A stretch of 64,000 bases of DNA from Escherichia coli (GTDB taxonomy: Bacteria; Pseudomonadota; Gammaproteobacteria; Enterobacterales; Enterobacteriaceae), in the NCBI RefSeq assembly GCF_003019035.1, contig NZ_CP027447.1. One strand, 5' to 3'. Of the stretch, positions 31,437 to 62,550 are shown one piece after another. Every line of letters starts with the position of its first letter. Position 1 is the first letter of the stretch. The position numbers and the translations under genes were made by a program. Under the pieces are notes generated by a model. The model searched no databases. It was not told the DNA's origin and saw only the letters and a list, made by a program, of their open reading frames with translations.

Positions 31437-31504
31437 CCTTAAAGAACTGTGCTTTGCAGTGCTCACACAGATTGTCTGATGAAAATGAGCAGTAAAACCT
31501 CTAC

Positions 31505-31581
<77 letters not shown>

Positions 31582-31623
31582 AATTTGCATCGCAAATTTG
31601 AAGAGGTTTTAACTACATGTTAT

Positions 31624-31699: not shown

Positions 31700-31872
31700 T
31701 CTCTGTAGTGATTAAATAAAAAATACTTCAGAGTGTACCTGCAAAGGTTCACTGCGAAGTTTTGCTCTTTAAAAATCTGGATCAAGCTGAAAATTGAAAC
31801 ACTGAACAACGAAAGTTGTTCGTGAGTCTCTCAAATTTTCGCAATCAGAAGTGAAACATCTTCGGGTTGTGA

Positions 31873-34776
<2,904 letters not shown>

Positions 34777-34867
34777 ACAACGCCGAAGATGTTTTGGCGG
34801 AAGAGAGAAGATTTTCAGCCTGATACAGATTAAATCAGAACGCAGAAGCGGTCTGATAAACAGAATT

Positions 34868-34987
34868 TGCCTGGCGGCCTTAGCGCGGTGGTCCCACCTG
34901 ACCCCATGCCGAACTCAGAAGTGAAACGCCGTAGCGCCGATGGTAGTGTGGGGTCTCCCCATGCGAGAGTAGGGAACTGCCAGGCAT
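34868..34987 (+). rRNA. rrfA: 5S ribosomal RNA
   Basis: tgcctggcggcc...gggaactgccaggcat; 120 nt. Confidence 0.95.
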
Positions 34988-43934: not shown

Positions 43935-44081
43935 GATTCGCCTGAACATGCCCTTTTTTCGTAAGTAAGCAACATAAGCTGTCACGTTTTGTGATGGCTA
44001 TTAGAAATTCCTATGCAACAACTGAAAAAAAATTACAAAAAATGCTTTCTGAACTGAACAAAAAAGAGTAAAGTTAGTCGC

Positions 44082-44190
44082 GTAGGGTACAGAGGTAAGA
44101 TGTTCTATCTTTCAGACCTTTTACTTCACGTAATCGGATTTGGCTGAATATTTTAGCCGCCCCAGTCAGTAATGACTGGGGCGTTTTTTA
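44082..44190 (+). ncRNA. spf: Spot 42 small RNA
   Basis: gtagggtacagaggtaagatgttctatctttcagacc...gccgccccagtcagtaatgactggggcgtttttta matches Spot 42 (109 nt) with its intrinsic terminator. Confidence 0.85.
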
Positions 44191-44210
44191 TTGGGCGAAA
44201 GAAAAGATCC

Positions 44211-44296
44211 GTAATGCCTGATGCGCCATGTTTATCAGGCCAACGGTAGAAGTGTAATCTATTGAATTTACTGGCCGGATACGCCACATCCGGCAC
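44211..44296. repeat. REP-like palindromic units between spf and engB
   Basis: gcctgatgcgccatgtttatcaggcc and ggccggatacgccacatccggc. Confidence 0.5.
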
Positions 44297-44315
44297 AAGC
44301 ATTAAGGCAAGAAAA

Positions 44316-44948
44316 TTATTCGCCGTCCTGCGTTTCTTCTACAGGCTGCATCTCGCTAAACCAGGTATCCAGTTTCTGCCGCAGCTTGTCCACGCCTTGT
44401 TTCTTCAGTGAAGAGAAGGTTTCAACCTGCACATCACCGTTAAACGCCAGCACCGCTTCACGCACCATATTCAATTGCGCTTTACGTGCGCCGCTTGCCA
44501 GTTTGTCCGCTTTGGTCAGCAGCACCAGCACGGCGATATTGCTGTCTACCGCCCACTCAATCATCTGCTGATCCAAATCTTTCAGCGGATGGCGAATATC
44601 CATTAGCACCACCAGACCTTGCAGGCTCTGACGTTTTTCGAGGTACTCGCCGAGCGCGCGCTGCCATTTGCGCTTCATCTCTTCCGGGACTTCCGCATAA
44701 CCGTACCCAGGCAAGTCAACCAGACGCTTGCCGTCAGCCACTTCAAACAGGTTGATAAGCTGGGTGCGCCCTGGGGTTTTTGAGGTCCGCGCCAGGCTTT
44801 TCTGGTTAGTCAGCGTGTTCAGCGCGCTGGATTTACCTGCGTTGGAACGGCCTGCAAAAGCCACTTCAATTCCGGTATCGGAAGGTAGGTGGCGAATATC
44901 AGGCGCACTCATCACAAAATGCGTCTGTTGATAATTCAAATTAGTCAA
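44316..44948 (-). CDS. engB: Ribosome biogenesis GTPase EngB (YihA/YsxC)
   Basis: 210 aa; G1 motif GRSNAGKSS; non-ATG (TTG) start as read from the sequence. Confidence 0.9.
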
Positions 44949-45218
44949 AGCGGTCGTCTCCGTCAGTCAAAGCTTTGCGGCGATTATACCTGAACCATAA
45001 TAAAAGGCGGATTTTTCGGCGTGAGCGTTGTAAGTAAAAGCCATACGCTTTGTGAGACATTGCCGATAGTCTTTATGCGAAATAGCAGAGAAAATTCTGC
45101 GATGCATGTCAAATAAGCTATATAAATCAGTTAATTGCTTTTATATAAAACTCTGAAAATGTGCAAATACTGATGGCGGTTGATTGTTTGTTTAAAGCAA
45201 AGGCGTAAAGTAGCACCC

Positions 45219-45462
45219 ATAGAGCGAGGACGCTAACAGGAACAATGACTCAGGATGAGGGTCAGGAGCGCCAGGAGGCGAAGACAGAGGATTGTCAGGA
45301 AGACAAACGTCCGGAGACGTAATTAAACGGAAATGGAATCAACACGGATTGTTCCGGCTAATGGAAAAACAGGGTGTGTTGGCGGCCTGCAAGGATTGTA
45401 AGACCCGTTAAGGGTTATGAGTCAGGAAAAAAGGCGACAGAGTAATCTGTCGCCTTTTTTCT
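45219..45462 (+). ncRNA. csrC: CsrC small RNA (CsrA-sequestering)
   Basis: Non-coding stretch with many GGA motifs (caggatgagg, caggaggcg, caggaag, ...) ending in a ggcgacagagtaatctgtcgcc hairpin plus T-run; position between engB and yihI matches csrC. Confidence 0.65.
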
Positions 45463-45529
45463 TTGCTTGCTTTCTGTTAGATTCCGCCGCAAATCTATAC
45501 TGAATAAAACGGCTAAAAGACGAACCATT

Positions 45530-46039
45530 ATGAAACCATCATCTTCAAACTCACGCAGCAAAGGTCATGCAAAAGCGCGTCGAAAAACACGCGAGGAGCT
45601 GGATCAGGAAGCTCGTGACCGTAAGCGTCAGAAAAAACGTCGTGGTCATGCGCCGGGCAGCCGCGCAGCGGGCGGTAACACCTCGTCAGGCAGCAAAGGC
45701 CAGAACGCACCAAAAGATCCACGTATTGGCAGTAAAACCCCTATTCCATTGGGCGTGACTGAAAAAGTCACCAAACAGCACAAACCGAAGAGTGAGAAAC
45801 CTATGCTTTCACCGCAGGCGGAGTTGGAATTACTGGAAACGGATGAGCGTCTGGATGCGCTGCTGGAACGTCTGGAAGCAGGCGAAACCCTGAGCGCCGA
45901 AGAGCAATCCTGGGTGGATGCTAAACTGGATCGTATTGATGAGTTGATGCAGAAACTCGGCCTCTCTTATGACGATGACGAAGAAGAGGAAGAAGACGAG
46001 AAGCAAGAAGACATGATGCGTCTGCTGCGGGGCAACTAA
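45530..46039 (+). CDS. yihI: Der GTPase-activating protein YihI
   Basis: Start at [19 protein letters not shown] (169 aa); basic N-terminus, acidic C-terminus. Confidence 0.85.
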
Positions 46040-46227
46040 CGGATTGCCGCCGTGGGCCTTCCCGTTCTGCTGATAACCCTTCCGGTTATATGTTATCTGG
46101 TGTGGTTATTCGTTAAACTACAGCGGTTGTCGCGGCGACAAAAGTGGCTGCGCAACCGGCTGATGACCCGAAACGGGCATCCGCCGGTACGCCGTAGCCG
46201 CCAGAGACGCCATCGGAAGGAGTGAGC

Positions 46228-47601
46228 ATGTCTGTACAGCAAATCGACTGGGATCTGGCCCTGATCCAGAAATATAACTATTCCGGGCCACGATACACCT
46301 CGTACCCGACCGCGCTGGAGTTTTCAGAAGACTTCGGCGAACAGGCGTTTTTACAAGCCGTGGCGCGCTATCCTGAGCGTCCATTATCTCTCTACGTACA
46401 TATTCCGTTCTGCCATAAGCTTTGTTACTTCTGCGGTTGCAATAAGATAGTTACTCGCCAGCAGCACAAGGCCGATCAGTATCTGGACGCGCTGGAGCAA
46501 GAAATCGTCCATCGTGCACCGCTTTTTGCCGGGCGCAAGGTGAGCCAGCTGCACTGGGGCGGTGGTACGCCGACGTATCTGAACAAAGCGCAAATCAGCC
46601 GTCTGATGAAGCTGCTGCGCGAAAACTTCCAGTTCAATGCCGATGCGGAGATTTCGATCGAAGTCGATCCGCGCGAAATCGAACTGGATGTACTCGATCA
46701 TTTACGCGCCGAGGGCTTTAATCGCCTGAGCATGGGCGTGCAGGACTTCAACAAAGAAGTGCAACGTCTGGTTAACCGCGAGCAGGATGAAGAGTTCATC
46801 TTTGCACTGCTTAACCATGCGCGTGAGATTGGCTTTACCTCCACCAACATCGACCTGATTTACGGTCTGCCGAAACAGACGCCGGAAAGTTTTGCCTTTA
46901 CCCTGAAACGTGTGGCGGAGCTGAACCCCGATCGTCTGAGCGTCTTTAACTACGCGCATCTGCCAACTATTTTTGCCGCCCAACGCAAAATCAAAGATGC
47001 TGACTTGCCGAGTCCGCAACAAAAACTCGATATCTTGCAGGAAACCATCGCCTTCCTGACACAATCGGGCTATCAGTTTATCGGTATGGATCACTTTGCT
47101 CGCCCTGATGACGAGCTGGCAGTGGCCCAGCGCGAAGGCGTGTTGCATCGTAACTTCCAGGGCTATACCACTCAGGGCGATACCGATTTGCTGGGGATGG
47201 GCGTTTCCGCCATCAGCATGATTGGCGACTGCTACGCGCAGAACCAGAAAGAGTTGAAGCAGTACTATCAGCAAGTGGATGAACAAGGCAATGCGCTGTG
47301 GCGTGGTATTGCGCTAACGCGTGATGACTGTATTCGCCGCGATGTGATTAAGTCGCTCATCTGCAACTTCCGTCTGGATTACGCTCCCATTGAGCAACAG
47401 TGGGATTTGCACTTCGCTGATTACTTTGCGGAAGATCTCAAGCTGCTCGCCCCGTTAGCAAAAGATGGGCTGGTGGATGTGGATGAGAAGGGGATTCAAG
47501 TGACGGCGAAAGGTCGCTTGCTGATCCGCAACATTTGCATGTGCTTTGATACCTATCTGCGCCAGAAAGCGCGGATGCAGCAGTTCTCACGGGTGATTTA
47601 A
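46228..47601 (+). CDS. hemN: Oxygen-independent coproporphyrinogen III oxidase HemN (radical SAM)
   Basis: Start at MSVQQIDWDLALIQKYNYSGPRYTSYPT (457 aa, RBS GGAAGGA); CxxxCxxC radical-SAM motif (CHKLCYFC). Confidence 0.95.
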   Translation: MSVQQIDWDLALIQKYNYSGPRYTSYPTALEFSEDFGEQAFLQAVARYPERPLSLYVHIPFCHKLCYFCGCNKIVTRQQHKADQYLDALEQEIVHRAPLFAGRKVSQLHWGGGTPTYLNKAQISRLMKLLRENFQFNADAEISIEVDPREIELDVLDHLRAEGFNRLSMGVQDFNKEVQRLVNREQDEEFIFALLNHAREIGFTSTNIDLIYGLPKQTPESFAFTLKRVAELNPDRLSVFNYAHLPTIFAAQRKIKDADLPSPQQKLDILQETIAFLTQSGYQFIGMDHFARPDDELAVAQREGVLHRNFQGYTTQGDTDLLGMGVSAISMIGDCYAQNQKELKQYYQQVDEQGNALWRGIALTRDDCIRRDVIKSLICNFRLDYAPIEQQWDLHFADYFAEDLKLLAPLAKDGLVDVDEKGIQVTAKGRLLIRNICMCFDTYLRQKARMQQFSRVI

Positions 47602-47667
47602 ATAGTGAATGGCGCTTCGTTTACAAAGTAGAAAACGAAAGCGCCATCAATGTGCTGAGAACAAGAT

Positions 47668-48888
<1,221 letters not shown>

Positions 48889-48917
48889 CAACAGCGCCTG
48901 ACGGCGCTGTGTCTGGC

Positions 48918-48977
<60 letters not shown>

Positions 48978-49000
48978 AAACCTGTTGAAAATATTGCTTT

Positions 49001-49040
49001 TGCAGGCCGGATAAGGCGTTCACGCCGCATCCGGCATGAA
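49001..49040. repeat. REP element downstream of the IS
   Basis: gcaggccggataaggcgttcacgccgcatccggcatg. Confidence 0.5.
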
Positions 49041-49069
49041 CAAAGAGCACTTCATCAGCAATCTGAAAC

Positions 49070-49180
49070 TCAACTAAACAGCCCAATCATCGCGGCACAC
49101 AGCACGGCAGCAACGGCAGTTTGTGGTGTGTGGCTGTCAACTGCGCCACTCGATACCAGATTAATTATTGATTCCAGCAT
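49070..49180 (-). CDS. yshB: Small membrane protein YshB-like, 36 aa
   Basis: Manual translation: MLESIINLVSSGAVDSHTPQTAVAAVLCAAMIGLFS with RBS GGAGAG; below the ORF-track size cut-off; identity to YshB recalled from memory. Confidence 0.5.
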   Translation of the reverse strand: MLESIINLVSSGAVDSHTPQTAVAAVLCAAMIGLFS

Positions 49181-49291
49181 AATGACTCTCCCCGTTTTCC
49201 GGGCAAGATCATACTGAACTTATCGGAACAGTAAAGCGCAAAATACCAGCAATTTGCGCTCAATAATCAATCTTTACTCACAAGCCGTGAA

Positions 49292-50701
49292 TCACTCCAT
49301 CCCTAGCTCTTTTAACTTACGCGTCAGGGTGTTACGCCCCCAGCCAAGTAAGCGCGCAGCTTCCTGTTTATGCCCCTGCGTATGTCGCAACGCGGTCGTC
49401 AGTAACGTCCGCTCCAACTCTGGTTGCGCTTCAGACAGCAAGTTTTGATGACCGGAACGTAGCGCCCGATCTGCCCACTGTGCTAACAGCGTTGCCCAAC
49501 TGTCCGGCTGCATTTGTGAAGTGCTTTCCGGTACGGTTGATTCAAACAGTTCACCGGGCAAATCCTGAATCAACACTTCCTGCCCGGCGGCCATCACCGT
49601 TAGCCAGCGACAGGTGTTTTCCAGCTGACGCACGTTCCCCGGCCACGCCAGGCGCGTCAGCGCGGCTTCGGTTTCCGGATGCAGCAACTTCGCTTCTACG
49701 CCCAGTTCGCGCGCGGCAACCTGTAAAAAATGGCGTGCCAGACGGGGAATATCTTCCCGACGCTCACGCAATGGCGGCAGATGAACGCGGATAACGTTCA
49801 GGCGGTGGAACAGATCCTCGCGGAACTTGCCTTCCTGCACGCGCAGTTCCAGGTTCTGGTGAGTAGCAGCGATAATACGCACATCCACTTTCACCGGCGC
49901 ATAGCCGCCAACGCGGTAAAACTGACCGTCTGCCAGTACGCGCAGCAAACGGGTCTGCACATCCAGCGGCATATCGCCAATTTCATCGAGGAATAATGTG
50001 CCACCATCGGCCTGTTCAAAACGCCCCTGACGAATGGTATTCGCGCCGGTAAACGCGCCTTTCTCGTGACCAAACAGTTCTGATTCGATCAAATCCTTCG
50101 GAATAGCCGCCATATTCAGCGCGATAAATGGCGCTTTGGCTCGCGGACTGTGGCGATGCAGGGCATGAGCGACCAGTTCTTTACCGGTGCCGGATTCGCC
50201 GTTAATCAGCACGCTAATAGAAGAACGCGAAAGCCGACCGATAATACGGAACACGTCCTGCATGGCTGGCGCTTCGCCGATGATATCGGTCGTTGGGCCG
50301 TTAAGCTGAACATTACGCGGCTGCTGCTGTTCCTGATAATGGCTGATGGCGCGCTCAACCAGCGCCACGGCTTCGTCGATATCAAACGGTTTGGGCAGAT
50401 AATCAAACGCCCCTTGTTGATAGGCGCTGACGGCAGCATCCAGATCGGAATGTGCGGTCATAATGATGACCGGAAGCATCGGATGGCGCTGTTTAATCTG
50501 CTTGAGCAGCGCCAGCCCGTCCATTCCCGGCATACGGATATCTGAAAGCAGCACATCCGGCGTTTTGCTCGCCAGCGCCTCCAGTACTTCCGCGCCGTTC
50601 TCAAATGTCGTACAGGTTAAACCCGCTCCAGCGAGCGCACGTTCAAGCACCCAACGGATGGAACTATCGTCATCGACTACCCAGACTATCCCTCGTTGCA
50701 T
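49292..50701 (-). CDS. glnG: Nitrogen regulation response regulator NtrC (sigma-54 activator)
   Basis: Start at [23 protein letters not shown] (469 aa); AAA+ GESGTGKE and GAFTGA motifs; track ORF has an extension. Confidence 0.95.
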
Positions 50702-50712
50702 AAACGTCACCT

Positions 50713-51762
50713 TTATTTCCTGATAGGCAGGTAAACCGAGAACTCGGTATGACCTGGCCAACTGGTAAATTCAATTTTGCCTGAATGCTGATCAATCAAA
50801 TTACGGGCGATGGATAAGCCAAGCCCGGTGCCACCTTCGCGGCCGCTGACCATCGGGTAAAACAGCGTATCCTGCAAATGAGGCGGAATACCTGGCCCGT
50901 TATCTTCCACATCAATTCGCGCCGCCAGCCGATAACGCTCGCCGTGTAAGGTCAGTTGAAACGCGGTGCGGGTACGCAGAATGATTTCACCACCCTCCGG
51001 CCCCAGCGCCTGTAGCGCATTGCGCACAATATTCAGCAAGACCTGTTCAATTTGATCCGGGTCGTGCGCCAGTTCCGGCAGGCTGGGGTCGTAATCCCGA
51101 ATCAACCGCACGTTGCTCGGCAGTTCCATCGACACCAGCGTCACCACGCGTTCAGCCACTTTGTGAATACTTTCGGTAATACGCGTACCGGGCAGCTGCG
51201 GCCCCAACAGACGGTCGACCAGATTTCGCAGCCGGTCCGCCTGTTCGATAATCACTTTGGTATATTCGAGTAGTGACGGGTCAGGTAATGCTTTGCTGAG
51301 CAGCTGCGCCGCGCCACGTAAACCGCCAAGCGGATTTTTAATCTCATGTGCCAGGCCGCGCACTAAATCACGGGCAGCAACCTGCTGGGCGTGCTGTAGC
51401 TGTTCCTGACTTAAGCGGCGCTGGTTATCCATCGGTGCCATCTCCAGCAGGATCATGCCGTCCGGCATACGCTGAGCCGTCACAGAAAGGATATGCGAGC
51501 GCCCGTCGATGACCAGCGTCACTTCGTTATCGGTAAAGCCTTGCCCCGCCTCCAGACTTTCTTGCATCAGCTCGATATTTAATGAGAAGTAGCTCAACAG
51601 TTCCGGTAACGGCGTACCAAACAATTTGCGGGAGCTTTGGGCGAGCAGTTGTTGCGCGGCGGGGTTGGCGTAATGGATCGCCAGATTGTCATCAATTAAC
51701 AAAATACTGTTAATCAGCGAGTTGAGGATCTGCCCAGCATCGGGCTGCGTGCCTGTTGCCAT
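50713..51762 (-). CDS. glnL: Nitrogen regulation sensor histidine kinase NtrB
   Basis: 349 aa; H-box HEIKNPL; RBS AGGAGA. Confidence 0.95.
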
Positions 51763-51850
51763 AAAGCAGTCTCCTGAACAGGTTGCACCATTTTAGTGCA
51801 TTATAGCTTTTTACGGATAAAAAGCGCGAAGCATCAGAGAATTGACGGAG

Positions 51851-51875
51851 AAAAAAGCCCATGCAGAGATGGGCT
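51851..51875 (-). terminator. glnA rho-independent terminator
   Basis: On the minus strand: agcccatctctgcatgggct hairpin followed by TTTTTT. Confidence 0.6.
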
Positions 51876-51935
51876 GAAAGTTTCCACGGCAACTAAATCC
51901 CAGCGTTGTTGCGCCGGGTAGTACAACTTCAACTA
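51851..51935 (-). ncRNA. Candidate 3-prime-UTR-derived sRNA of glnA (GlnZ-like); position-based only
   Basis: About 60 nt of 3-prime UTR plus the intrinsic terminator downstream of the glnA stop; glnA 3-prime-UTR sRNAs are described in enterobacteria. Confidence 0.3.
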
Positions 51936-53345
51936 TTAGACGCTGTAGTACAGCTCAAACTCTACCGGATGCGGAGTCATACGCACACGGTCATCTTCTT
52001 CGCGACGCAGAGCGATGTACGCATCGATCGCTTCATCAGTGAACACGCCACCGGCTTTCAGGAACTCGCGGTCCAGATCCAGTTCGTTCAGTGCTTCTTC
52101 CAGAGAACCAGCAACCTGTGGGATCTCTTTCGCTTCTTCCGGCGGCAGGTCATACAGGTTTTTGTCCATGGCTTCGCCCGGATGGATCTTGTTCTTGATA
52201 CCGTCAAGACCGGCCATCAGCAGGGCAGCAAAACACAGGTACGGGTTAGCCGCCGGGTCCGGGAAACGTACTTCGATACGACGTGCTTTCGGAGAAGAAA
52301 CCACCGGAATACGGATAGACGCAGAACGGTTACGCGCAGAGTAAGCCAGCATTACCGGTGCTTCGTAGCCCGGGACCAGACGCTTGTAAGAGTTGGTGGT
52401 CGGGTTTGCCAGGGCATTAATCGCTTTCGCGTGTTTGATTACGCCGCCAATATAGTACAGCGCCTGCTCAGACAGACCTGCGTATTTGTCGCCAGCAAAC
52501 AGGTTAACGCCGTTTTTAGACAGCGACATGTGGCAGTGCATACCGGAACCGTTATCACCGAACATCGGTTTTGGCATAAAGGTCGCAGTTTTACCGAAGC
52601 GGTGCGCTACGTTGTGCACAACATATTTGTAGATCTGAATTTCGTCAGCTTTTTTGGTCATGGTATTGAAGCGGGTAGCCACTTCGTTCTGACCAGCAGT
52701 CGCTACTTCGTGGTGATGGGCTTCAACCACCAGACCCATCTGTTCCATCACCAGACACATTTCAGAACGAATATCCTGAGCCGAGTCTACCGGTGGAACC
52801 GGGAAGTAACCGCCTTTCACTGCCGGACGGTGACCTTTGTTACCACCTTCGTATTGGGTGGAGGAGTTCCATGCGCCTTCGATATCGTCGATAGCAACGT
52901 GGGAACCGGAGATAGATGATCCGAAACGGATGTCATCGAACAGGAAGAATTCAGGTTCTGGCCCGAACAGTACGGTGTCGGCAATGCCAGTGGAACGCAG
53001 GTAATCTTCGGCGCGCTTCGCAATGGAGCGCGGGTCACGGTCATAGCCTTGCAGGGTGCCAGGTTCAAGGATGTCGCAACGGATAATCAGGGTGGAGTCG
53101 GCGAAGAACGGGTCAATCACTGCGGTGGATGCGTCTGGCATCAGCACCATGTCGGATTCATTAATGCCTTTCCAGCCGCCAATCGAGGAGCCGTCAAACA
53201 TTTTGCCTTCTTCGAAGAATTCGGCATTCACCTGATGAGCAGGGATAGTGACGTGCTGTTCTTTACCTTTGGTATCGGTGAAGCGCAAATCAACAAACTT
53301 CACTTCGTGCTCGTTCAGCATCGTCAGTACGTGTTCAGCGGACAT
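51936..53345 (-). CDS. glnA: Glutamine synthetase GlnA
   Basis: 469 aa; [31 protein letters not shown]...; adenylylation-site region present. Confidence 0.97.
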
Positions 53346-53424
53346 ACTTTAACTCTCCTGGATTGGTCATGGTCGTCGTGGTAACGAAATCTGCAATTAT
53401 TTTGGCCGTGTCGCCGTAAAAAAG

Positions 53425-53446
53425 ATAAAGCGAAAACTGTGCCAAC
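53425..53446 (-). promoter_or_regulatory. Sigma-54 promoter glnAp2 (TGGCAC-N5-TCGCT)
   Basis: Minus-strand reading ttggcacagttttcgct, with correct -24/-12 spacing, upstream of glnA. Confidence 0.6.
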
Positions 53447-53489
53447 TTTTAAATTGCCCCTAAAAGGCGTTATCATGCTTAACATCGTG

Positions 53490-53570
53490 CAAAAGGGCTG
53501 CACCATGATGTGAATGTTGCACCAATATAGTGCTTCAATGGAAACATTAAGCACCATATTGGTGCAATGA
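53490..53570. promoter_or_regulatory. NtrC binding sites (enhancer) upstream of glnA
   Basis: Perfect palindrome gcaccatattggtgca (53551-53566) plus tgcacca-type half-sites at 53500-53530. Confidence 0.55.
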
Positions 53571-53717
53571 CCTTTGGATAACCCTTTTTATGCTCCGTGA
53601 AAGCGATCACAAAGGGACTCTGCAATACTTGTTTGCGGAGGATGTTTGTGATCCTGTTTTGTAGTGCGATTAATCCGTGTACAATAACGCGCTATTTCTA
53701 ATGCCTGAGGCAAAGTT

Positions 53718-55541
53718 GTGATCGAAAAATTGCGTAATATCGCCATCATCGCGCACGTAGACCATGGTAAAACCACCCTGGTAGACAAGCTGCTCCAACA
53801 ATCCGGTACGTTCGACTCTCGTGCCGAAACCCAAGAGCGCGTGATGGACTCCAACGATTTGGAGAAAGAGCGTGGGATTACCATCCTCGCGAAAAACACC
53901 GCTATCAAATGGAATGATTACCGTATCAACATCGTTGATACCCCGGGGCACGCCGACTTCGGTGGTGAAGTTGAACGTGTAATGTCCATGGTAGACTCAG
54001 TGCTGCTGGTGGTTGACGCATTTGACGGCCCGATGCCGCAAACGCGCTTCGTAACCAAAAAAGCGTTTGCTTACGGCCTGAAGCCGATTGTTGTTATCAA
54101 CAAAGTTGACCGCCCTGGCGCGCGTCCTGATTGGGTTGTGGATCAGGTATTCGATCTGTTCGTTAACCTCGACGCGACCGACGAGCAGCTGGACTTCCCG
54201 ATCGTTTACGCTTCTGCGCTGAATGGTATCGCGGGTCTGGACCACGAAGATATGGCGGAAGACATGACCCCGCTGTATCAGGCGATTGTTGACCACGTTC
54301 CTGCGCCGGACGTTGACCTTGACGGTCCGTTCCAGATGCAGATTTCTCAGCTCGATTACAACAGCTATGTTGGCGTTATCGGCATTGGCCGCATCAAGCG
54401 CGGTAAAGTGAAGCCGAACCAACAGGTTACTATCATCGATAGCGAAGGCAAAACCCGCAACGCGAAAGTCGGTAAAGTGCTGGGCCACCTCGGTCTGGAA
54501 CGTATCGAAACCGATCTGGCGGAAGCTGGCGATATCGTGGCGATCACGGGTCTTGGCGAACTGAACATTTCTGACACCGTTTGCGACACGCAAAACGTTG
54601 AAGCGCTGCCGGCACTCTCCGTTGATGAGCCGACCGTTTCTATGTTCTTCTGCGTTAACACCTCGCCGTTCTGCGGTAAAGAAGGTAAGTTCGTAACGTC
54701 TCGTCAGATCCTGGATCGTCTGAACAAAGAACTGGTACACAACGTTGCGCTGCGCGTAGAAGAAACCGAAGACGCCGATGCGTTCCGCGTTTCTGGTCGT
54801 GGCGAACTGCACCTGTCTGTTCTGATCGAAAACATGCGTCGTGAAGGTTTCGAACTGGCGGTATCCCGTCCGAAAGTTATCTTCCGTGAAATCGACGGTC
54901 GTAAACAAGAGCCGTATGAAAACGTGACTCTGGACGTTGAAGAACAGCATCAGGGTTCTGTGATGCAGGCACTGGGCGAACGTAAAGGCGACCTGAAGAA
55001 CATGAATCCAGACGGTAAAGGCCGCGTACGTCTCGACTACGTGATCCCAAGCCGTGGTCTGATTGGCTTCCGTTCTGAGTTCATGACCATGACCTCTGGT
55101 ACGGGTCTGTTGTACTCCACCTTCAGCCACTATGACGACGTACGTCCGGGTGAAGTGGGTCAGCGTCAGAACGGCGTACTGATCTCTAACGGTCAGGGTA
55201 AAGCGGTAGCGTTCGCGCTGTTCGGTCTGCAGGACCGTGGTAAGCTGTTCCTCGGTCACGGTGCAGAAGTTTACGAAGGTCAGATTATCGGTATTCATAG
55301 CCGCTCTAACGACCTGACTGTAAACTGCCTGACCGGTAAGAAACTGACCAACATGCGTGCTTCCGGTACTGACGAAGCCGTTGTTCTGGTTCCACCTATC
55401 CGCATGACTCTGGAACAAGCTCTGGAGTTCATCGATGATGACGAACTGGTAGAAGTGACTCCGACCTCTATCCGTATTCGTAAACGTCACCTGACGGAAA
55501 ACGATCGTCGTCGCGCCAACCGCGCACCGAAAGACGATTAA
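53718..55541 (+). CDS. typA: Ribosome-associated translational GTPase TypA/BipA
   Basis: 607 aa, GTG start; G-domain AHVDHGKTT and DTPGH motifs. Confidence 0.95.
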
Positions 55542-55562
55542 TTTCGTTTTTTAGTTATAAAA

Positions 55563-55591
55563 AACCTGCCATCGCTGGCAGGTTTTTTTTT
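55563..55591 (+). terminator. typA rho-independent terminator
   Basis: aacctgccatcgctggcaggtt hairpin followed by a 9-T run. Confidence 0.8.
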
Positions 55592-55757
55592 ACCTGTCGT
55601 GAGCGCACACCAATGCGAGTATCTCCCTTATAAGTCTGTGATTACGTCAATAGAGAGCTTTGTCACAATTATCTGCAAAGTCATACACCGTTAATTGCTT
55701 TCTTTTTTGGCGTAAGCGTAAGATGCTTCATCTGGTTTAAACCAAAAGGATTAAACA

Positions 55758-56468
55758 ATGGCGGAGAATCAATCCACCGTAGAAAATGCAAAAGAGAAAC
55801 TGGATCGGTGGTTGAAAGATGGCATCACCACGCCGGGTGGAAAACTCCCTTCAGAAAGAGAGCTGGGAGAACTGCTGGGCATTAAACGTATGACGCTGCG
55901 CCAGGCGTTGTTGAACCTCGAGGCAGAATCCAAAATCTTCCGTAAGGATCGTAAAGGGTGGTTCGTGACCCAGCCGCGATTTAATTACAGTCCAGAGCTG
56001 TCGGCGAGCTTTCAGCGGGCTGCAATTGAGCAAGGGCGGGAACCTTCCTGGGGGTTTACCGAGAAAAGCCGTACCAGAGATATTCCCGAGACGCTCGTGC
56101 CACTGATTACAGTGACACCATCCACTGAACTCTATCGCATCACCGGCTGGGGAGCGCTGGAAGGACATAAAGTTTTCTATCACGAAACATATATTAATCC
56201 TGAAGTTGCCCCGGGTTTTATTGAACAACTTGAAAACCACTCATTTTCTGCAGTCTGGGAAAAGTGCTACCAAAAAGAGACGGTAGTAAAAAAATTGATT
56301 TTCAAACCCGTCAGAATGCCGGGCGATATCAGCAAGTATCTTGGCGGTTCTGCGGGTATGCCAGCGATCTTAATTGAAAAGCATCGCGCCGACCAGCAGG
56401 GCAATATTGTCCAGATAGATATTGAATATTGGCGATTTGAGGCCGTAGACCTCATCATTAATCTGTAG
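55758..56468 (+). CDS. yihL: GntR/UTRA-family transcriptional regulator YihL
   Basis: 236 aa; HTH region LPSERELGELLGIKRMTLRQAL. Confidence 0.8.
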   Translation: MAENQSTVENAKEKLDRWLKDGITTPGGKLPSERELGELLGIKRMTLRQALLNLEAESKIFRKDRKGWFVTQPRFNYSPELSASFQRAAIEQGREPSWGFTEKSRTRDIPETLVPLITVTPSTELYRITGWGALEGHKVFYHETYINPEVAPGFIEQLENHSFSAVWEKCYQKETVVKKLIFKPVRMPGDISKYLGGSAGMPAILIEKHRADQQGNIVQIDIEYWRFEAVDLIINL

Positions 56469-56475
56469 GTGTTTT

Positions 56476-57456
56476 ATGGTGACAATAAATAACGCAAGAA
56501 AGATTCTACAACGTGTCGACACTCTTCCTCTTTATTTACATGCTTATGCCTTTCATTTAAATATGCGACTGGAAAGAGTGTTGCCTGCTGATTTACTTGA
56601 TATCGCAAGTGAAAATAATCTACGTGGCGTCAAAATCCATGTTCTGGATGGAGAGCGTTTTTCTCTTGGTAATATGGACGATAAAGAACTCTCTGCCTTT
56701 GGGGATAAAGCCCGCCGTCTGAACCTTGATATTCATATTGAAACCAGCGCCTCAGATAAAAAATCTATTGACGAAGCCGTCGCCATCGCGTTGAAAACTG
56801 GGGCATCCTCCGTACGTTTTTATCCGCGTTATGAAGGTAATTTGCGCGATGTATTATCGATTATCGCTAACGACATTGCCTATGTACGAGAAACGTATCA
56901 GGACAGCGGCCTGACTTTTACGATCGAACAGCATGAAGATTTAAAAAGCCATGAGCTGGTGTCGCTGGTCAAAGAAAGTGAGATGGAATCTCTTTCCTTA
57001 CTGTTTGATTTTGCGAACATGATCAATGCAAATGAGCATCCCATCGACGCTTTAAAAACGATGGCACCGCATATTACCCAGGTCCATATCAAAGATGCCT
57101 TGATCGTTAAAGAAGAGGGTGGCCTGGGTCATAAAGCCTGTATTTCAGGTCAGGGTGATATGCCGTTCAAAGCGTTATTAACGCACCTTATCTGCCTGGG
57201 TGATGATGAGCCGCAGGTGACGGCATATGGCCTGGAAGAAGAGGTTGATTACTATGCGCCGGCGTTCCGCTTTGAAGACGAAGATGATAATCCGTGGATC
57301 CCTTATCGCCAGATGAGTGAAACACCATTGCCAGAAAATCATTTACTGGATGCGCGGTTACGTAAAGAAAAAGAAGATGCAATTAATCAGATAAATCATG
57401 TGCGTAACGTACTACAACAAATCAAACAAGAGGCAAACCATCTTCTGAACCACTAA
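56476..57456 (+). CDS. yihM: Sugar phosphate isomerase/epimerase-like (xylose isomerase-like TIM barrel) YihM
   Basis: 326 aa; gene order yihL-yihM-yihN as in E. coli. Confidence 0.8.
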   Translation: MVTINNARKILQRVDTLPLYLHAYAFHLNMRLERVLPADLLDIASENNLRGVKIHVLDGERFSLGNMDDKELSAFGDKARRLNLDIHIETSASDKKSIDEAVAIALKTGASSVRFYPRYEGNLRDVLSIIANDIAYVRETYQDSGLTFTIEQHEDLKSHELVSLVKESEMESLSLLFDFANMINANEHPIDALKTMAPHITQVHIKDALIVKEEGGLGHKACISGQGDMPFKALLTHLICLGDDEPQVTAYGLEEEVDYYAPAFRFEDEDDNPWIPYRQMSETPLPENHLLDARLRKEKEDAINQINHVRNVLQQIKQEANHLLNH

Positions 57457-57557
57457 TAAGTTTTAACTCATACGCTGTTAATAAAACCATTCCATATGAA
57501 TGGTCGGTATCTTATTGCCTTTAAAACAGTGATTTTAAAAATCGCTTAGGGGATGTT

Positions 57558-58823
57558 ATGCTCACGAAAAAGAAATGGGCGTTATTTAGTCTATTAACAC
57601 TGTGTGGCGGTACAATTTATAAATTACCGTCGCTGAAAGATGCGTTTTATATCCCGATGCAGGAATATTTCCATTTGACCAATGGTCAAATTGGTAATGC
57701 TATGTCGGTAAACTCATTTGTCACGACAGTGGGCTTTTTTCTGTCTATTTATTTTGCCGATAAACTACCGCGCAGATACACCATGTCATTCTCACTCATT
57801 GCGACAGGATTACTGGGTGTTTATTTGACGACAATGCCGGGGTATTGGGGCATCCTCTTTGTCTGGGCGCTATTTGGCGTTACTTGCGACATGATGAACT
57901 GGCCGGTCTTGCTCAAGTCGGTAAGTCGATTGGGCAATAGCGAACAACAAGGTCGGTTGTTTGGCTTCTTCGAAACAGGGCGTGGCATTGTCGATACCGT
58001 GGTGGCATTTTCTGCGTTGGCAGTATTTACCTGGTTTGGCAGTGGCTTATTGGGTTTTAAAGCAGGCATCTGGTTCTATTCCCTTATTGTGATTGCCGTA
58101 GGCATTATCATTTTCTTTGTTCTGAATGACAAAGAAGAGGCACCGTCCGTTGAGGTGAAAAAAGAAGACGGAGCATCGAAAAACACCAGTATGACCTCGG
58201 TGCTGAAAGACAAAACTATCTGGCTTATCGCTTTCAACGTCTTCTTCGTTTACGCGGTTTACTGTGGCCTGACATTCTTCATTCCATTCTTGAAAAACAT
58301 CTATCTATTGCCTGTTGCGCTGGTGGGGGCTTACGGCATCATTAACCAATACTGTCTGAAAATGATTGGTGGACCGATTGGTGGCATGATTTCAGATAAG
58401 ATCCTGAAATCGCCGAGTAAATATCTATGCTACACCTTTATCATCAGTACCGCTGCGCTCGTACTGTTGATTATGCTGCCGCACGAAAGTATGCCGGTCT
58501 ATTTAGGGATGGCATGTACGCTGGGCTTTGGCGCGATAGTCTTTACACAGCGAGCCGTATTTTTTGCACCTATCGGCGAAGCAAAAATTGCTGAAAATAA
58601 AACAGGCGCGGCGATGGCGTTGGGTAGCTTTATTGGTTACGCCCCGGCGATGTTCTGCTTCAGTCTGTATGGCTACATTCTGGATTTAAATCCGGGGATT
58701 ATTGGCTACAAAATCGTGTTTGGCATTATGGCCTGCTTCGCATTCTGTGGTGCGGTGGTTTCCGTAATGCTGGTTAAGCGTATTAGCCAACGTAAGAAAG
58801 AGATGCTGGCGGCTGAAGCTTAA
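57558..58823 (+). CDS. yihN: MFS transporter YihN
   Basis: 421 aa; about 12 predicted TM segments. Confidence 0.85.
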   Translation: MLTKKKWALFSLLTLCGGTIYKLPSLKDAFYIPMQEYFHLTNGQIGNAMSVNSFVTTVGFFLSIYFADKLPRRYTMSFSLIATGLLGVYLTTMPGYWGILFVWALFGVTCDMMNWPVLLKSVSRLGNSEQQGRLFGFFETGRGIVDTVVAFSALAVFTWFGSGLLGFKAGIWFYSLIVIAVGIIIFFVLNDKEEAPSVEVKKEDGASKNTSMTSVLKDKTIWLIAFNVFFVYAVYCGLTFFIPFLKNIYLLPVALVGAYGIINQYCLKMIGGPIGGMISDKILKSPSKYLCYTFIISTAALVLLIMLPHESMPVYLGMACTLGFGAIVFTQRAVFFAPIGEAKIAENKTGAAMALGSFIGYAPAMFCFSLYGYILDLNPGIIGYKIVFGIMACFAFCGAVVSVMLVKRISQRKKEMLAAEA

Positions 58824-58827
58824 TTAA

Positions 58828-58907
58828 TGGCCGGATGTGGCTTAATCCGGCCAACGAAAACCGTATCAACCGTAGGCCGGATAAGGCGTTTTCGCCGCAT
58901 CCGGCAG
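58828..58907. repeat. REP elements between yihN and ompL
   Basis: ggccggatgtggcttaatccggcc and gtaggccggataaggcgttttcgccgcatccggca. Confidence 0.5.
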
Positions 58908-58914
58908 TTTTACA

Positions 58915-59607
58915 TCAGAAGAAATACTTCGTCCCGATACGAATCTGGTTTTGCTCGCGGTGGTACGGCTCTACGTTGCGATCTAACCAGCGCAATTCAA
59001 TATAGGGCAACCAGTGCTCATTAATGCGATAACGGAAGGTGTTAGTGATTTCCCAGTGATGCTTCGTACCATTGCTGCTATTGAAATCATTAATGTTATA
59101 AAAATAATGCGGTTCAAAGGTATATGAGAACTTATCGGTAATAATAAAGTTCCAGTAGTTGCCAATCTCGTAGCTGTCATTATTATCCAGATCACCGTTC
59201 AAATCGGTTGAGCTATAGTTATTATGGTTAAAACGATTACGTACCGTCAGGTTAAACCATGGAGTAAATTTGTAGTTAACATCCAGATAAACAGCACCAC
59301 CCGAACCGATACTCTTATCATTAATTAAGCCACCGGGCTGGATGGTTAATTTATCGGTTGGTTTGAATAACGGATACCAACCTTCGATTTCGTTATATCC
59401 ATGTTTGAGTTCATCTTCTCGCTGAAAGGTGTAGGTATTGGTTAACATAATACCCGCGCCCATATCGAAGTTATAACCCACACGTAGCATAACCTCGCCC
59501 TGATCGGAGGCGAGATTATATGCCTCCCTGTTTTCGACGTATGCGCCAGCAAATACCGAGGCAGAGGTCAGAGAGGATAATAGAATTATTGCATTAATCT
59601 TTTTCAT
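58915..59607 (-). CDS. ompL: Outer membrane porin OmpL
   Basis: Start at MKKINAIILLSSLTSASVFA (signal peptide; 230 aa); C-terminal aromatic residue (..TKYFF) typical of beta-barrels. Confidence 0.8.
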   Translation of the reverse strand: MKKINAIILLSSLTSASVFAGAYVENREAYNLASDQGEVMLRVGYNFDMGAGIMLTNTYTFQREDELKHGYNEIEGWYPLFKPTDKLTIQPGGLINDKSIGSGGAVYLDVNYKFTPWFNLTVRNRFNHNNYSSTDLNGDLDNNDSYEIGNYWNFIITDKFSYTFEPHYFYNINDFNSSNGTKHHWEITNTFRYRINEHWLPYIELRWLDRNVEPYHREQNQIRIGTKYFF

Positions 59608-59673
59608 AATAAGTCCATTTTTAAGCGTAGGGAGGCCGCCACCCACCAGGATGGAAATAGCGGCTATTGACAT

Positions 59674-61077
59674 TTATAACGTTACGGAAGCCGTTTTTTC
59701 TTCTGTCGCCATCTCTTTATTTTTGCGTTGGTTAATTTCCTCAATAATCAGTGCAAACCGTTTTTCATTGAGTGTGTAAAAGAATCCCATCGTCAATGCA
59801 GCAATAATTGCCAGTGCACAAGGCCAGATAAAAATGAGCTGACGCAAACCCTGTAATGTCGCATCACTTTGCGCGATGTTGGGAACATAACCTATTTGCG
59901 TCAGCATAATGCCTGGCAAGAAGCCAGCAAGTGCGGCAGAAATTTTACGAAAGAAGGTATAACCGGTATAAACAGAACCTTCGGCACGAATACCGGTTTT
60001 CCATTCACCGTAATCTACGGTATCTGGCACCAGTGCCCAGTTCAGGCTGTTTACAAAGGCCGTGCCAAAAAAGGCGACACAAGAGAACATGACGAAAGTG
60101 AAAGAGTTATTTCCCCAGAAATAATTCAGGATATCACCAACCGCCCACAGCACCATGCCAGCTAAATAAACCTGTTTTTTACCAAAATATTTTACAGTTA
60201 ATGGCACCAGTAATACGCCGACGAGGATGCATCCCATACTGAAGAATCCCATCCACGACAATAAATTAATATCATTTAGCACATACTGGGTGTAATAGAC
60301 CTGAATCGCCAGTTTGATATTAAATGCCGCCAGAGTACACAGGTTAGCAATGCACAATACCAGCAAAGGTGGATTATGAAATATCGCGCAAAATGATTTG
60401 AGAATACTGGCCTTATGTCCGGTTGGCGTGGTGTCCACATAATGCTCTTTGACGCCTCTGTAGCACAGCATCATAAAAATAAAGCCGCCAATGGAGAACA
60501 TCAGTGCCGCACAGGCATAACCGACGGTTGAGTCAGAAAAAAGCGACTGCAACGGAATAAACGCCACGGTACAAATCAATAGCCCTATGGTTGCACCACC
60601 CTGGCGGTAAGCCGCGAGCTGCGCGCGCTCATTGGGGTTTTTGGTAATGGCCGGGATCATCGCACCATACGAGCAGTTCATCAGACTGTATGAAAGTCCA
60701 AACATCATAAACAGTGCGGTGGCAATCGTCGTTTTAACCGGCAAACTAAAGGTGGTGGCGATAAACTGGAGCGTTGCAATTAACGCCGCCGGAACCGCTG
60801 CATATAAAATAAAGGGACGAAATTTGCCTTTAGGCCCAATATTTTTCCGCGAGTCGAGTAAAAATCCGGTGAGCATATCGGTAAATGCGGTAAAAAACTT
60901 CGCCACCAGAAAGATAATCCCGCCATAGTAAGCAGGCATCCCTAATTCATCGGTATAAAATTTGAGGAGATACAGAGTACCGATGCAGAGCATTAAATTC
61001 GAACCGACGTCGCCCATACCATAGGCGATTTTTTCCCGCAGATTCAGTCTTAATGTCAGTGGATTATGGTCAGACAT
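59674..61077 (-). CDS. yihO: GPH-family sugar:cation symporter YihO (putative sulfoquinovose importer)
   Basis: Start at MSDHNPLTLRLNL with RBS AAGGAG (467 aa); paralog of the adjacent yihP. Confidence 0.85.
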   Translation of the reverse strand: MSDHNPLTLRLNLREKIAYGMGDVGSNLMLCIGTLYLLKFYTDELGMPAYYGGIIFLVAKFFTAFTDMLTGFLLDSRKNIGPKGKFRPFILYAAVPAALIATLQFIATTFSLPVKTTIATALFMMFGLSYSLMNCSYGAMIPAITKNPNERAQLAAYRQGGATIGLLICTVAFIPLQSLFSDSTVGYACAALMFSIGGFIFMMLCYRGVKEHYVDTTPTGHKASILKSFCAIFHNPPLLVLCIANLCTLAAFNIKLAIQVYYTQYVLNDINLLSWMGFFSMGCILVGVLLVPLTVKYFGKKQVYLAGMVLWAVGDILNYFWGNNSFTFVMFSCVAFFGTAFVNSLNWALVPDTVDYGEWKTGIRAEGSVYTGYTFFRKISAALAGFLPGIMLTQIGYVPNIAQSDATLQGLRQLIFIWPCALAIIAALTMGFFYTLNEKRFALIIEEINQRKNKEMATEEKTASVTL

Positions 61078-61119
61078 AATCACTCCTTATAACGCCCCGC
61101 AGGGCGTTGTTTATTATAA

Positions 61120-62505: not shown

Positions 62506-62550
62506 CGTTGTTCTCCCTTTGCCCGTGAGTTTCCCCACGGGCGGATGTGA

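What the first reader, a model, noticed from the sequence alone, without database searches (positions are those of the whole stretch)
51851..51935. Possible glnA 3-prime-UTR sRNA (GlnZ-like)
The glnA stop is followed on the minus strand by about 60 nt and a strong intrinsic terminator. 3-prime-UTR-derived sRNAs from glnA have been reported in E. coli and Salmonella, and this segment would be the corresponding locus. I cannot confirm seed-region conservation by eye.
Basis: partly seen in the sequence, partly recalled or inferred. Interest (0 to 1): 0.3.

Follow-up and report, generated by a model that had tools for sequence, protein, structure and literature searches.

The report
Known GlnZ sRNA, short O157 type

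Summary
glnA (51936..53345, minus strand) is followed by 60 nt, a 7-bp hairpin and six U's. The resulting 3'UTR is 51935..51851, exactly 85 nt.

- The window is E. coli.
- The segment is 84/85 identical to the O157:H7 glnA 3'UTR. That RNA is the published 85-nt "O157-type"/Class I GlnZ, also called EsrF. It has been detected by Northern blot and RACE and shown to repress glnP, sucA and aceE.
- The published seed UUGCCGUGGAAA is present exactly at 51892..51881, next to the terminator.
- The seed pairs in silico with the sucA, glnP and aceE leaders at the positions of the published compensatory mutations.
- The single difference from O157 (51902, C to U) turns a G-C pair into G.U in the upstream hairpin, outside the seed.
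- A cross-species pattern scan found the seed-terminator module after glnA in 110 of 120 hits, across Enterobacterales.

The most likely mechanism: NtrC/sigma-54 drives glnA transcription under nitrogen limitation. The 3'UTR is released by RNase E with Hfq. The seed then represses sucA, glnP and aceE.

The rival EsrF model proposes its own promoter, induction by high ammonium and activation of flhB. It is published but two later studies contradict it.

One side observation: Rfam's Ysr49 family is the Yersinia GlnZ ortholog.

Novelty: already known. Interest: low.

The parts
51851..51935 (-). Complete glnA 3'UTR, the full-length 85-nt GlnZ (O157 type / Class I; synonym EsrF)
   Evidence: It runs from the first base after the glnA stop to the end of the terminator U-run. 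It is 84/85 identical to O157:H7 F1273. The published 3'UTR length is 85 nt. RACE mapped EsrF as exactly 85 nt, starting at the T next to the stop codon.
51881..51892 (-). Seed UUGCCGUGGAAA (3'UTR nt 44-55)
   Evidence: It matches the published seed exactly. The UU and the preceding G were not constrained by my search pattern, yet they are conserved in 108/108 and 105/108 cross-species glnA 3'UTRs. Mean unpaired probability is 0.61, the highest of any internal segment.
51885..51897 (-). Extended pairing stretch for aceE (nt 39-51, UUUAGUUGCCGUG)
   Evidence: It forms 13 contiguous pairs with aceE -104..-92, one of them G.U. G46 pairs with C-99 and U41 with A-94. These match the published G12C/C-99G compensatory pair and the U41G effect.
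51851..51875 (-). Rho-independent terminator and presumed Hfq-binding 3' end: hairpin 51875..51856 and a six-U run 51856..51851 (the first U is also the last stem base)
   Evidence: Terminator scan and fold. It is identical in the K-12, O111-type and O157 forms. A hairpin and U-run are present in the cross-species loci.
51899..51918 (-). Upstream hairpin 1 (CCCGGCG-CAACAA-CGCUGGG, nt 18-37)
   Evidence: The same stem, with other loops, occurs in Enterobacter asburiae, E. cloacae and Pseudenterobacter (L035, L036, L125). Its function is unknown; it may act as a stabilising or processing barrier (inference).
51902..51902 (-). The only difference from O157:H7 GlnZ: nt 34 is U instead of C (G-C becomes G.U in hairpin 1)
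   Evidence: Only 31 of 5426 genomes share the exact 85-nt sequence. L036 and L125 carry the same G.U.
51895..51900 (-). Two overlapping RNase E-like motifs (GG|AUU, GA|UUU) just 5' of the seed; the predicted 5' end of a short form of about 47-48 nt
   Evidence: Motif scan for RN|WUU. By analogy, Salmonella GlnZ2 (about 50 nt) is made by RNase E and is sufficient for sucA repression. 'Processed species' were seen in O157. The cleavage position itself is inferred, not shown.
51957..51961 (-). RNase E-like motif AG|UUU inside the glnA coding end, 23 nt before the 3'UTR starts
   Evidence: Motif scan. In K-12, two RNase E sites flank the glnA stop, and the upstream one is conserved in Salmonella. 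The correspondence to this motif is inferred.
51936..53345 (-). glnA coding sequence (glutamine synthetase), the parental mRNA
   Evidence: ORF of 469 aa. It is annotated as glnA in matching E. coli genomes.
53429..53444 (-). Sigma-54 type promoter of glnA (TGGCACAGTTTTCGCT; glnAp2)
   Evidence: Read directly from the sequence. The assignment rests on established knowledge of glnAp2. NtrC-dependent induction of GlnZ comes from the literature.
53518..53566 (-). Two NtrC-type palindromes upstream of glnAp2 (TGCACCAATATGGTGCT at 53566..53550; GCACTATATTGGTGCA at 53533..53518)
   Evidence: Read directly from the sequence. The assignment uses the known NtrC consensus and was not tested here.

Best explanation
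This is glnZ of the short (O157-type, Class I) form: an Hfq-dependent small RNA consisting of the 85-nt 3'UTR of the glnA mRNA.

Proposed mechanism:
1. Under nitrogen limitation, NtrC and sigma-54 drive glnA transcription. Transcription mostly stops at the hairpin and U-run at 51875..51851.
2. The 3'UTR is released from the mRNA by RNase E with the help of Hfq. This gives the 85-nt form and probably a 47-48-nt form that starts just 5' of the seed.
3. The single-stranded seed UUGCCGUGGAAA, next to the terminator, pairs with the leaders of sucA, glnP and aceE and lowers their expression. That holds back 2-oxoglutarate consumption and glutamine import while glutamine synthetase is being made.

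Shown here: location, sequence identity, seed, terminator, complementarity to the targets, and cross-species conservation.
Taken from the literature on the near-identical O157 RNA: expression, induction by low nitrogen, and repression of glnP, sucA and aceE through the seed, with a compensatory mutant tested for glnP.
Shown in the literature only for the K-12 and Salmonella forms, and inferred for this allele: the requirement for RNase E and Hfq in processing, the exact cleavage sites, and the role of hairpin 1.
For: Identity:
- The window is E. coli.
- The 85-nt 3'UTR is 84/85 identical to O157:H7, and the one change lies outside the seed and terminator.
- Its length and layout equal the published O157-type 85-nt 3'UTR and Class I.
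- The published seed matches exactly.

Predicted seed duplexes:
- sucA -43..-34.
- glnP -21..-12, just upstream of the SD.
- aceE -104..-92, with G46:C-99 and U41:A-94.
- These sites agree with the published mutational data.

Target conservation: 60-nt stretches around the three sites are 100% identical in 4476, 5385 and 5370 of about 5420 E. coli genomes, including O157.

Published experiments:
- O157 GlnZ/EsrF is induced by low nitrogen.
- It represses glnP, sucA and aceE via its seed.
- It is functional when swapped into K-12.
- In K-12 and Salmonella, RNase E and Hfq are required for processing, and release from the mRNA is needed for regulation.

Other support:
- MG1655 RefSeq annotates ncRNA glnZ (b4836) at the same locus.
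- Of 120 cross-species pattern hits, 110 lie 9-231 nt after glnA, 4 are cut at a locus edge and 6 are chance hits without a hairpin.
- A sigma-54 promoter and NtrC-type sites lie upstream of glnA in the window.
Against: - No expression data exist for this strain, and the window is a somewhat divergent E. coli lineage: about 97% identical to most genomes over 20 kb.
- No canonical RNase E motif lies at the mapped 5' end of the 85-nt form, nt 1.
- One study reports that form to be TEX-resistant and independent of the glnA promoter.
- Seed-duplex energies are only weakly better than shuffled controls: 31/300, 44/300 and 7/300 shuffles did as well. The pairing argument therefore rests on agreement with published mutants, not on energy statistics.
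- Rfam has no family named GlnZ, and the window does not reach any gathering score at this site.
- The target genes are not in the window, so I used K-12 target sequences.
Confidence: 0.93

Rival explanations
1. EsrF model (Jia et al. 2021). The 85-nt RNA is a primary transcript from its own promoter inside the end of glnA. NtrC represses it, so it rises at high ammonium. It acts through GGGAUUUAG (nt 35-43) to activate flhB, and with it motility and virulence.
For: - The published O157 data include RACE, TEX resistance, unchanged levels in a glnA-promoter deletion, NtrC EMSA and footprinting, and RNA-RNA EMSA with flhB.
- The motif GGGAUUUAG is present in the window at nt 35-43.
- No canonical RNase E motif lies at nt 1.
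Against: - Two independent studies found O157 GlnZ/EsrF induced by low nitrogen, not high, and state that they disagree with Jia et al..
- With glnA placed under PBAD, GlnZ appears only on induction and needs RNase E. This was shown for K-12 and Salmonella.
- The sigma-70 consensus scan finds no promoter-like site upstream of 51935 on the minus strand. The 50 nt upstream contain only poor -10 candidates, judged by reading the sequence.
- The footprinted motif CACGGATGAAGCGATCGA reads CACTGATGAAGCGATCGA in the window.
- An flhB target is not excluded by the GlnZ model, so only the biogenesis and regulation parts truly compete.
Confidence: 0.1
2. The segment is only the glnA terminator and spacer. 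It acts in cis, stabilising glnA mRNA and limiting read-through into glnLG, and has no trans-acting role in this strain.
For: - Deleting the terminator slightly lowers GlnA in K-12, so a cis role does exist.
- The fold energy of the segment is not unusual.
Against: - A purely cis role does not explain a 13-nt single-stranded sequence that is invariant across more than 100 Enterobacterales species while the rest of the 3'UTR varies freely in length (9-231 nt) and sequence.
- The near-identical O157 RNA regulates targets in trans with a compensatory mutant.
- Changing the 3'UTR type does not alter GlnA or NtrC levels.
Confidence: 0.03

Closest known systems
GlnZ, O157 type (Miyakoshi et al. 2022, eLife, PMC9731577), also Class I GlnZ (Walling et al. 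2022) and EsrF (Jia et al. 2021, PMC8092317) of E. coli O157:H7
   Same: - Same locus, strand and length (85 nt).
- 84/85 identical.
- Identical seed, linker and terminator.
- Same upstream hairpin.
   Different: One base differs: nt 34 is U instead of C, which makes a G.U pair in hairpin 1. This allele is found in only 31 of 5426 complete genomes. That base lies inside the 18-nt flhB-pairing stretch predicted by Jia et al., but outside their 9-nt core motif.
GlnZ of E. coli K-12 (b4836, 194 nt; Class III)
   Same: Same locus, the same seed with its UUUAG flank, an identical terminator, and the same validated targets.
   Different: In K-12 the seed sits 9 nt after the stop codon, and a REP-containing insertion separates it from the terminator. 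In the window the seed sits directly before the terminator, preceded by 43 nt that include hairpin 1. The two RNAs do not align end to end.
Salmonella enterica GlnZ1/GlnZ2 (Class II)
   Same: The seed lies directly upstream of the terminator. A short RNase E-generated form of about 50 nt is sufficient for sucA repression.
   Different: The 3'UTR is 185 nt. An extra G next to the seed removes aceE regulation and adds deoD. The window has U at that position (U41).
Rfam RF02766 Ysr49 (Yersinia sRNA 49)
   Same: In Y. pestis, Ysr49 starts at the first base after the glnA stop, contains UUGCCGUGGAAA, and ends at the terminator. The window aligns to its seed and terminator part.
   Different: The window scores 32.3 bits against a gathering score of 95. 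The 5' 80 nt of the model are Yersinia-specific. Yersinia species with short 3'UTRs also miss the threshold.

Membership tests
GlnZ (glnA 3'UTR-derived, Hfq-dependent sRNA of Enterobacterales) | Lies in the 3'UTR of glnA, on the same strand, upstream of glnLG | tested here: met
   glnA is 51936..53345 (-), the 3'UTR is 51935..51851 (-), and glnL is 50713..51762 (-).
GlnZ (glnA 3'UTR-derived, Hfq-dependent sRNA of Enterobacterales) | Conserved seed 5'-UUGCCGUGGAAA-3' | tested here: met
   Exact match at 51892..51881 (-).
GlnZ (glnA 3'UTR-derived, Hfq-dependent sRNA of Enterobacterales) | Conserved Rho-independent terminator with a U tail at the 3' end | tested here: met
   Hairpin 51875..51856 and a six-U run 51856..51851. 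It is identical to the K-12, O111-type and O157 terminators.
GlnZ (glnA 3'UTR-derived, Hfq-dependent sRNA of Enterobacterales) | Seed is complementary to the validated sites in sucA, glnP and (in E. coli) aceE | tested here: met
   Duplexes at sucA -43..-34, glnP -21..-12 and aceE -104..-92 use the residues hit by published mutations. I used K-12 target sequences. The sites are almost invariant across E. coli. Energy statistics against shuffles are weak.
GlnZ (glnA 3'UTR-derived, Hfq-dependent sRNA of Enterobacterales) | Accumulates as a discrete small RNA, induced by nitrogen limitation through NtrC | not testable with these tools
   Shown for O157, O111, K-12 and Salmonella in the literature. 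In the window, only the sigma-54 promoter and NtrC-type sites could be read.
GlnZ (glnA 3'UTR-derived, Hfq-dependent sRNA of Enterobacterales) | Released from glnA mRNA by RNase E; binds Hfq and depends on it | not testable with these tools
   The literature covers K-12 and Salmonella, and Hfq dependence of EsrF in O157. Here I found only RNase E-like motifs at -23 and at nt 38/39.
O157-type / Class I subtype of GlnZ | 85-nt 3'UTR; seed directly upstream of the terminator; few nucleotides and no large insertion between stop codon and seed | tested here: met
   The 3'UTR is 85 nt, with 43 nt between stop and seed and 5 nt between seed and terminator stem. It lacks the K-12 REP insertion and the O111 insertion. 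It is 84/85 identical to O157:H7.
Rfam RF02766 Ysr49 | Score at or above the family's gathering threshold (95 bits) | tested here: not met
   The window scores 32.3 bits, E = 7.8e-5 on 201 nt. It is homologous in the seed and terminator part but is not a member by Rfam's criterion. Y. pestis scores 159.7 bits.

The most novel reading that the evidence does not exclude
The most novel reading not excluded has three parts:
- In the short-type allele, the conserved hairpin 1 followed by AUUUAG acts as a processing checkpoint that sets the ratio of the 85-nt form to a 47-48-nt form starting at nt 38/39.
- The two forms differ in target range. Cleavage at nt 38/39 would remove the GGGAUUUAG stretch proposed for flhB and would leave no unpaired flank 5' of the extended aceE pairing.
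- The rare U34 (G.U) allele of this lineage shifts that ratio.

A side point is that Rfam's Ysr49 and GlnZ are one family, and I found no paper in the searched library that says so.
Probability: 0.15. Interest if true: 0.2.

Novelty: already known. Interest (0 to 1): 0.08.

Why it matters
GlnZ links nitrogen assimilation to the TCA cycle. The mRNA that makes glutamine synthetase also releases an RNA that throttles 2-oxoglutarate dehydrogenase, pyruvate dehydrogenase and glutamine import. This window adds nothing new to that picture. It is one more instance of the commonest E. coli allele type, roughly half of complete genomes, with a single neutral-looking base change.

Three points have practical value:
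- PGAP-annotated RefSeq genomes leave this RNA unannotated, and Rfam has no family named GlnZ that catches it. Scans will therefore keep flagging it as a possible novelty.
- The Rfam family Ysr49 should be recognised as the Yersinia GlnZ ortholog.
- The conflict over how the O157-type RNA is made (own promoter or processing) remains a small, testable question.

Tried and rejected
- **Rfam at gathering thresholds** found nothing at the site. The permissive scan gave only a sub-threshold Ysr49 hit plus noise such as anti-hemB, Trp leader and suhB.
- **Single-sequence folding** gave z = -1.7, which is not informative.
- **Duplex prediction with the full 85-nt RNA** was meaningless: the long artificial duplexes were no better than shuffles, with 113/300, 84/300 and 36/300 shuffles doing as well. 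Restricting to nt 36-60 recovered the published sites, but with weak shuffle statistics.
- **The sigma-70 promoter scan** found no candidate for the proposed EsrF promoter. The scan is crude and cannot exclude a weak promoter.
- **Ysr49 in two Yersinia species with short 3'UTRs** gave no hit at gathering. Y. pestis was the right test.
- **A small protein** was considered and rejected. The 60-aa TTG ORF at 51710..51892 (-) runs through the terminator and the glnL promoter into glnL out of frame. The plus-strand ORFs at 51796..51921 and 51906..52919 are antisense to the UTR and glnA, and nothing supports them.
- **My cross-species pattern fixed the 5' arm of the terminator** (GCCCAT), so it cannot be used to argue covariation in that stem.
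- **E. coli allele frequencies** (about 51% short, 18% O111 type, 29% K-12 type) are estimates from evenly spaced rows of the ranking, not exact counts.

Full report
**What is in the sequence**

On the minus strand, an ORF of 469 aa at 51936..53345 is glutamine synthetase, glnA. It is annotated as glnA in matching E. coli genomes. The next gene on the same strand is glnL/ntrB at 50713..51762.

After the glnA TAA stop the sequence reads, 5' to 3':

UAGUUGAAGUUGUACUA / CCCGGCG-CAACAA-CGCUGGG / AUUUAG / UUGCCGUGGAAA / CUUUC / AGCCCAU-CUCUGC-AUGGGCU / UUUUU

- The terminator scan reports the final hairpin at 51875..51856. Six U's follow (51856..51851), the first of which is also the last stem base.
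- It also reports an upstream hairpin at 51918..51899.
- The finding's coordinates, 51851..51935, are therefore exactly the 85-nt 3'UTR.
- The description 'about 60 nt and then a terminator' is accurate.
- On its own the sequence is not remarkable. The fold z-score is -1.7, and terminator-like sites number 2 against 0.9 expected.

**Organism and allele**

A 241-nt query across the region matches 5425 of 5426 complete E. coli genomes, so the window is E. coli. Over 20 kb it is only about 97.2% identical to most E. coli genomes, with a best match of 98.8%, so it comes from a somewhat divergent lineage.

The glnA-glnL spacer exists in three length forms:
- a short form, as in the window;
- a form 145 nt longer;
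- the K-12 form, with a REP-containing insertion and the seed next to the stop codon.

The 85-nt query matches 3853 genomes. Evenly spaced rows of the ranking suggest roughly 51% short type, 18% long (O111) type and 29% K-12 type. These are estimates.

Against O157:H7 strain F1273 the window differs at one base. UTR nt 34 (window 51902) is U instead of C, which changes a G-C pair in hairpin 1 to G.U. Only 31 genomes share the exact 85-nt sequence.

**Comparison with the literature**

- Miyakoshi et al. (PMC9731577) classify E. coli glnA 3'UTRs into K-12 (197 nt), O157 (85 nt) and O111 (230 nt) types. By Northern blot they detected GlnZ RNAs of matching size, plus processed species, in O157 and O111, induced on glutamine as nitrogen source.
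- They give the conserved seed as 5'-UUGCCGUGGAAA-3'. This 12-mer is present exactly once in the window, at 51892..51881 on the minus strand, which is UTR nt 44-55.
- Walling et al. [quoted passage not shown]
- They show that EsrF is induced by nitrogen deprivation. They also show that it represses glnP, sucA and aceE through its seed, with a compensatory mutant tested for glnP.
- Jia et al. (PMC8092317) mapped EsrF by RACE as exactly 85 nt, starting at the T adjacent to the glnA stop codon. That is the window's 51935.
- The RefSeq record of MG1655 annotates ncRNA glnZ (b4836) directly after glnA. The PGAP-annotated genomes list nothing under the match.

**Target pairing**

The target genes are outside the window, so I used the MG1655 leaders. 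With UTR nt 36-60 as the pairing region, the best duplexes were:
- sucA -43..-34, pairing with U44-A53;
- glnP -21..-12, just upstream of the SD;
- aceE -104..-92, pairing with U39-G51 (13 pairs, one of them G.U).

In the aceE duplex, G46 pairs with C-99 and U41 with A-94. These correspond to the published K-12 G12C/C-99G compensatory pair and to the published O157 U41G mutation that weakens aceE control. In sucA, the central G49 corresponds to K-12 G15, whose mutation abolishes SucA repression.

The energies beat shuffled controls only weakly: 31/300, 44/300 and 7/300 shuffles did as well. The argument therefore rests on positional agreement with the genetics.

The 60-nt stretches around the three sites are 100% identical in 4476, 5385 and 5370 of about 5420 E. 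coli genomes, including O157:H7.

**Conservation beyond E. coli**

A plain pattern scan of one genome per species used GCCGTGGAAAYTT, a gap of 1-4 bases, then GCCCAT.
- In 110 of them the match lies 9-231 nt downstream of a glnA C-terminus on the same strand.
- Four more are complete modules cut at the locus edge.
- Six have no hairpin and come from unrelated phyla, so they look like chance hits.

The hosts span Enterobacteriaceae, Erwiniaceae, Yersiniaceae, Pectobacteriaceae and Hafniaceae.

Positions not fixed by the pattern are also conserved. The UU completing the seed is present in 108/108, the preceding G in 105/108, and a U-rich run lies before that. The stretch between stop codon and seed varies freely and often contains an unrelated G+C-rich hairpin.

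The window's hairpin 1 recurs with different loops in Enterobacter asburiae, E. cloacae and Pseudenterobacter. Two of these carry the same G.U as the window's rare base.

**How it most likely works**

- *Read from the window.* A sigma-54 type promoter (TGGCACAGTTTTCGCT, 53444..53429) lies upstream of glnA, with NtrC-type palindromes further upstream.
- *From the literature.* NtrC-dependent induction under nitrogen limitation. GlnZ is produced from the glnA mRNA and needs RNase E and Hfq. Release from the mRNA is required for SucA repression. The last two points were shown for the K-12 and Salmonella forms.
- *Inferred for this allele.* RNase E-like RN|WUU motifs lie 23 nt before the UTR (51961..51957) and at nt 38/39 (51900..51895), immediately 5' of the seed. 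Cleavage at nt 38/39 would give a 47-48-nt form analogous to Salmonella GlnZ2, which is about 50 nt and sufficient for sucA repression. No canonical motif lies at nt 1, so how the 85-nt 5' end arises is not settled.
- *Outcome (literature).* Less 2-oxoglutarate dehydrogenase E1, less pyruvate dehydrogenase E1 and less glutamine permease while glutamine synthetase is induced.

**Rivals**

The EsrF model proposes the RNA's own promoter in the end of glnA, repression by NtrC, induction by high ammonium, and activation of flhB through GGGAUUUAG.
- That motif is present in the window at nt 35-43.
- Two later studies found the opposite regulation and say so.
- The consensus scan finds no promoter-like site upstream of 51935.
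- An flhB interaction could coexist with the GlnZ mechanism.

A purely cis role, as terminator and mRNA stabiliser, exists. It cannot explain an invariant single-stranded 13-mer across more than 100 species.

**Family membership and verdict**

All sequence-testable defining features of GlnZ, and of its O157-type/Class I subtype, are met. Expression, Hfq binding and RNase E processing could not be tested here.

By Rfam's criterion the window is not a member of Ysr49: it scores 32.3 bits against a gathering score of 95. In Y. pestis, however, Ysr49 scores 159.7 bits, begins at the first base after the glnA stop, and contains the GlnZ seed and terminator. Ysr49 is therefore the Yersinia GlnZ ortholog. 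No listed paper in the searched library contains both names.

Noticed in passing
L101 3863-3986 (+), Yersinia pestis; window 51851..51955 (-): Rfam family RF02766 (Ysr49) is the Yersinia glnA 3'UTR RNA. It starts at the first base after the glnA stop, and it contains the GlnZ seed UUGCCGUGGAAA and the terminator (159.7 bits). Rfam has no family named GlnZ, and no listed paper in the library contains both names.
   Followed up: yes
window 44000..64000: This 20-kb stretch is only about 97.2% identical to most complete E. coli genomes. The best match is 98.8%, to strain KOr019 from river water. The window seems to come from a divergent E. coli lineage.
   Followed up: partly
window 51784..51805 (-): Between the GlnZ terminator and glnL there is a perfect TATAAT (51805..51800). 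It overlaps an NtrC-type palindrome, TGCACTAAAATGGTGCA (51800..51784). From memory, this looks like the NtrC-repressed glnL promoter. The consensus promoter scan did not report it, probably because the -35 is poor.
   Followed up: no
window 53529..53636 (+): An Rfam ES222 sRNA hit (133 bits) lies on the strand opposite glnA, over the NtrC-site region upstream of the glnA promoter.
   Followed up: no
L002 (E. coli ST865) 366-595, compared with window 51851..51935: In my alignment the O111-type 3'UTR is 145 nt longer than the short type. It also has GGAAATTTC where the window has GGAAACTTTC. The paper describes a 98-nt insertion flanked by AGGUUCAAA repeats. About 38 further nt after the second repeat are not explained by that description.
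   Followed up: partly
L003 (E. coli AMSHJX01) 384-742: In this genome the match begins only at the glnL promoter. A frameshifted, truncated clsB pseudogene abuts it, so glnA and GlnZ appear to be missing or rearranged at this junction. Many genes in the record are flagged as frameshifted, so assembly quality may be the cause.
   Followed up: no
L035, L036, L125 (Enterobacter asburiae, E. cloacae, Pseudenterobacter timonensis), glnA 3'UTRs: The window's upstream hairpin stem (CCCGGCG...CGCYGGG) recurs in these genera with different loops. Two of them have the same G.U pair as the window's rare base at 51902. This suggests the hairpin is an older, tolerated structural element of the roughly 40-nt Class I form.
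   Followed up: partly
window 14533..14784, 44072..44190, 45219..45472, 55526..55594 (+): Other known sRNA genes reach their Rfam gathering scores in the window: Erse, Spot 42, CsrC and STnc370. There is also an rRNA operon at 29895..34985.
   Followed up: no
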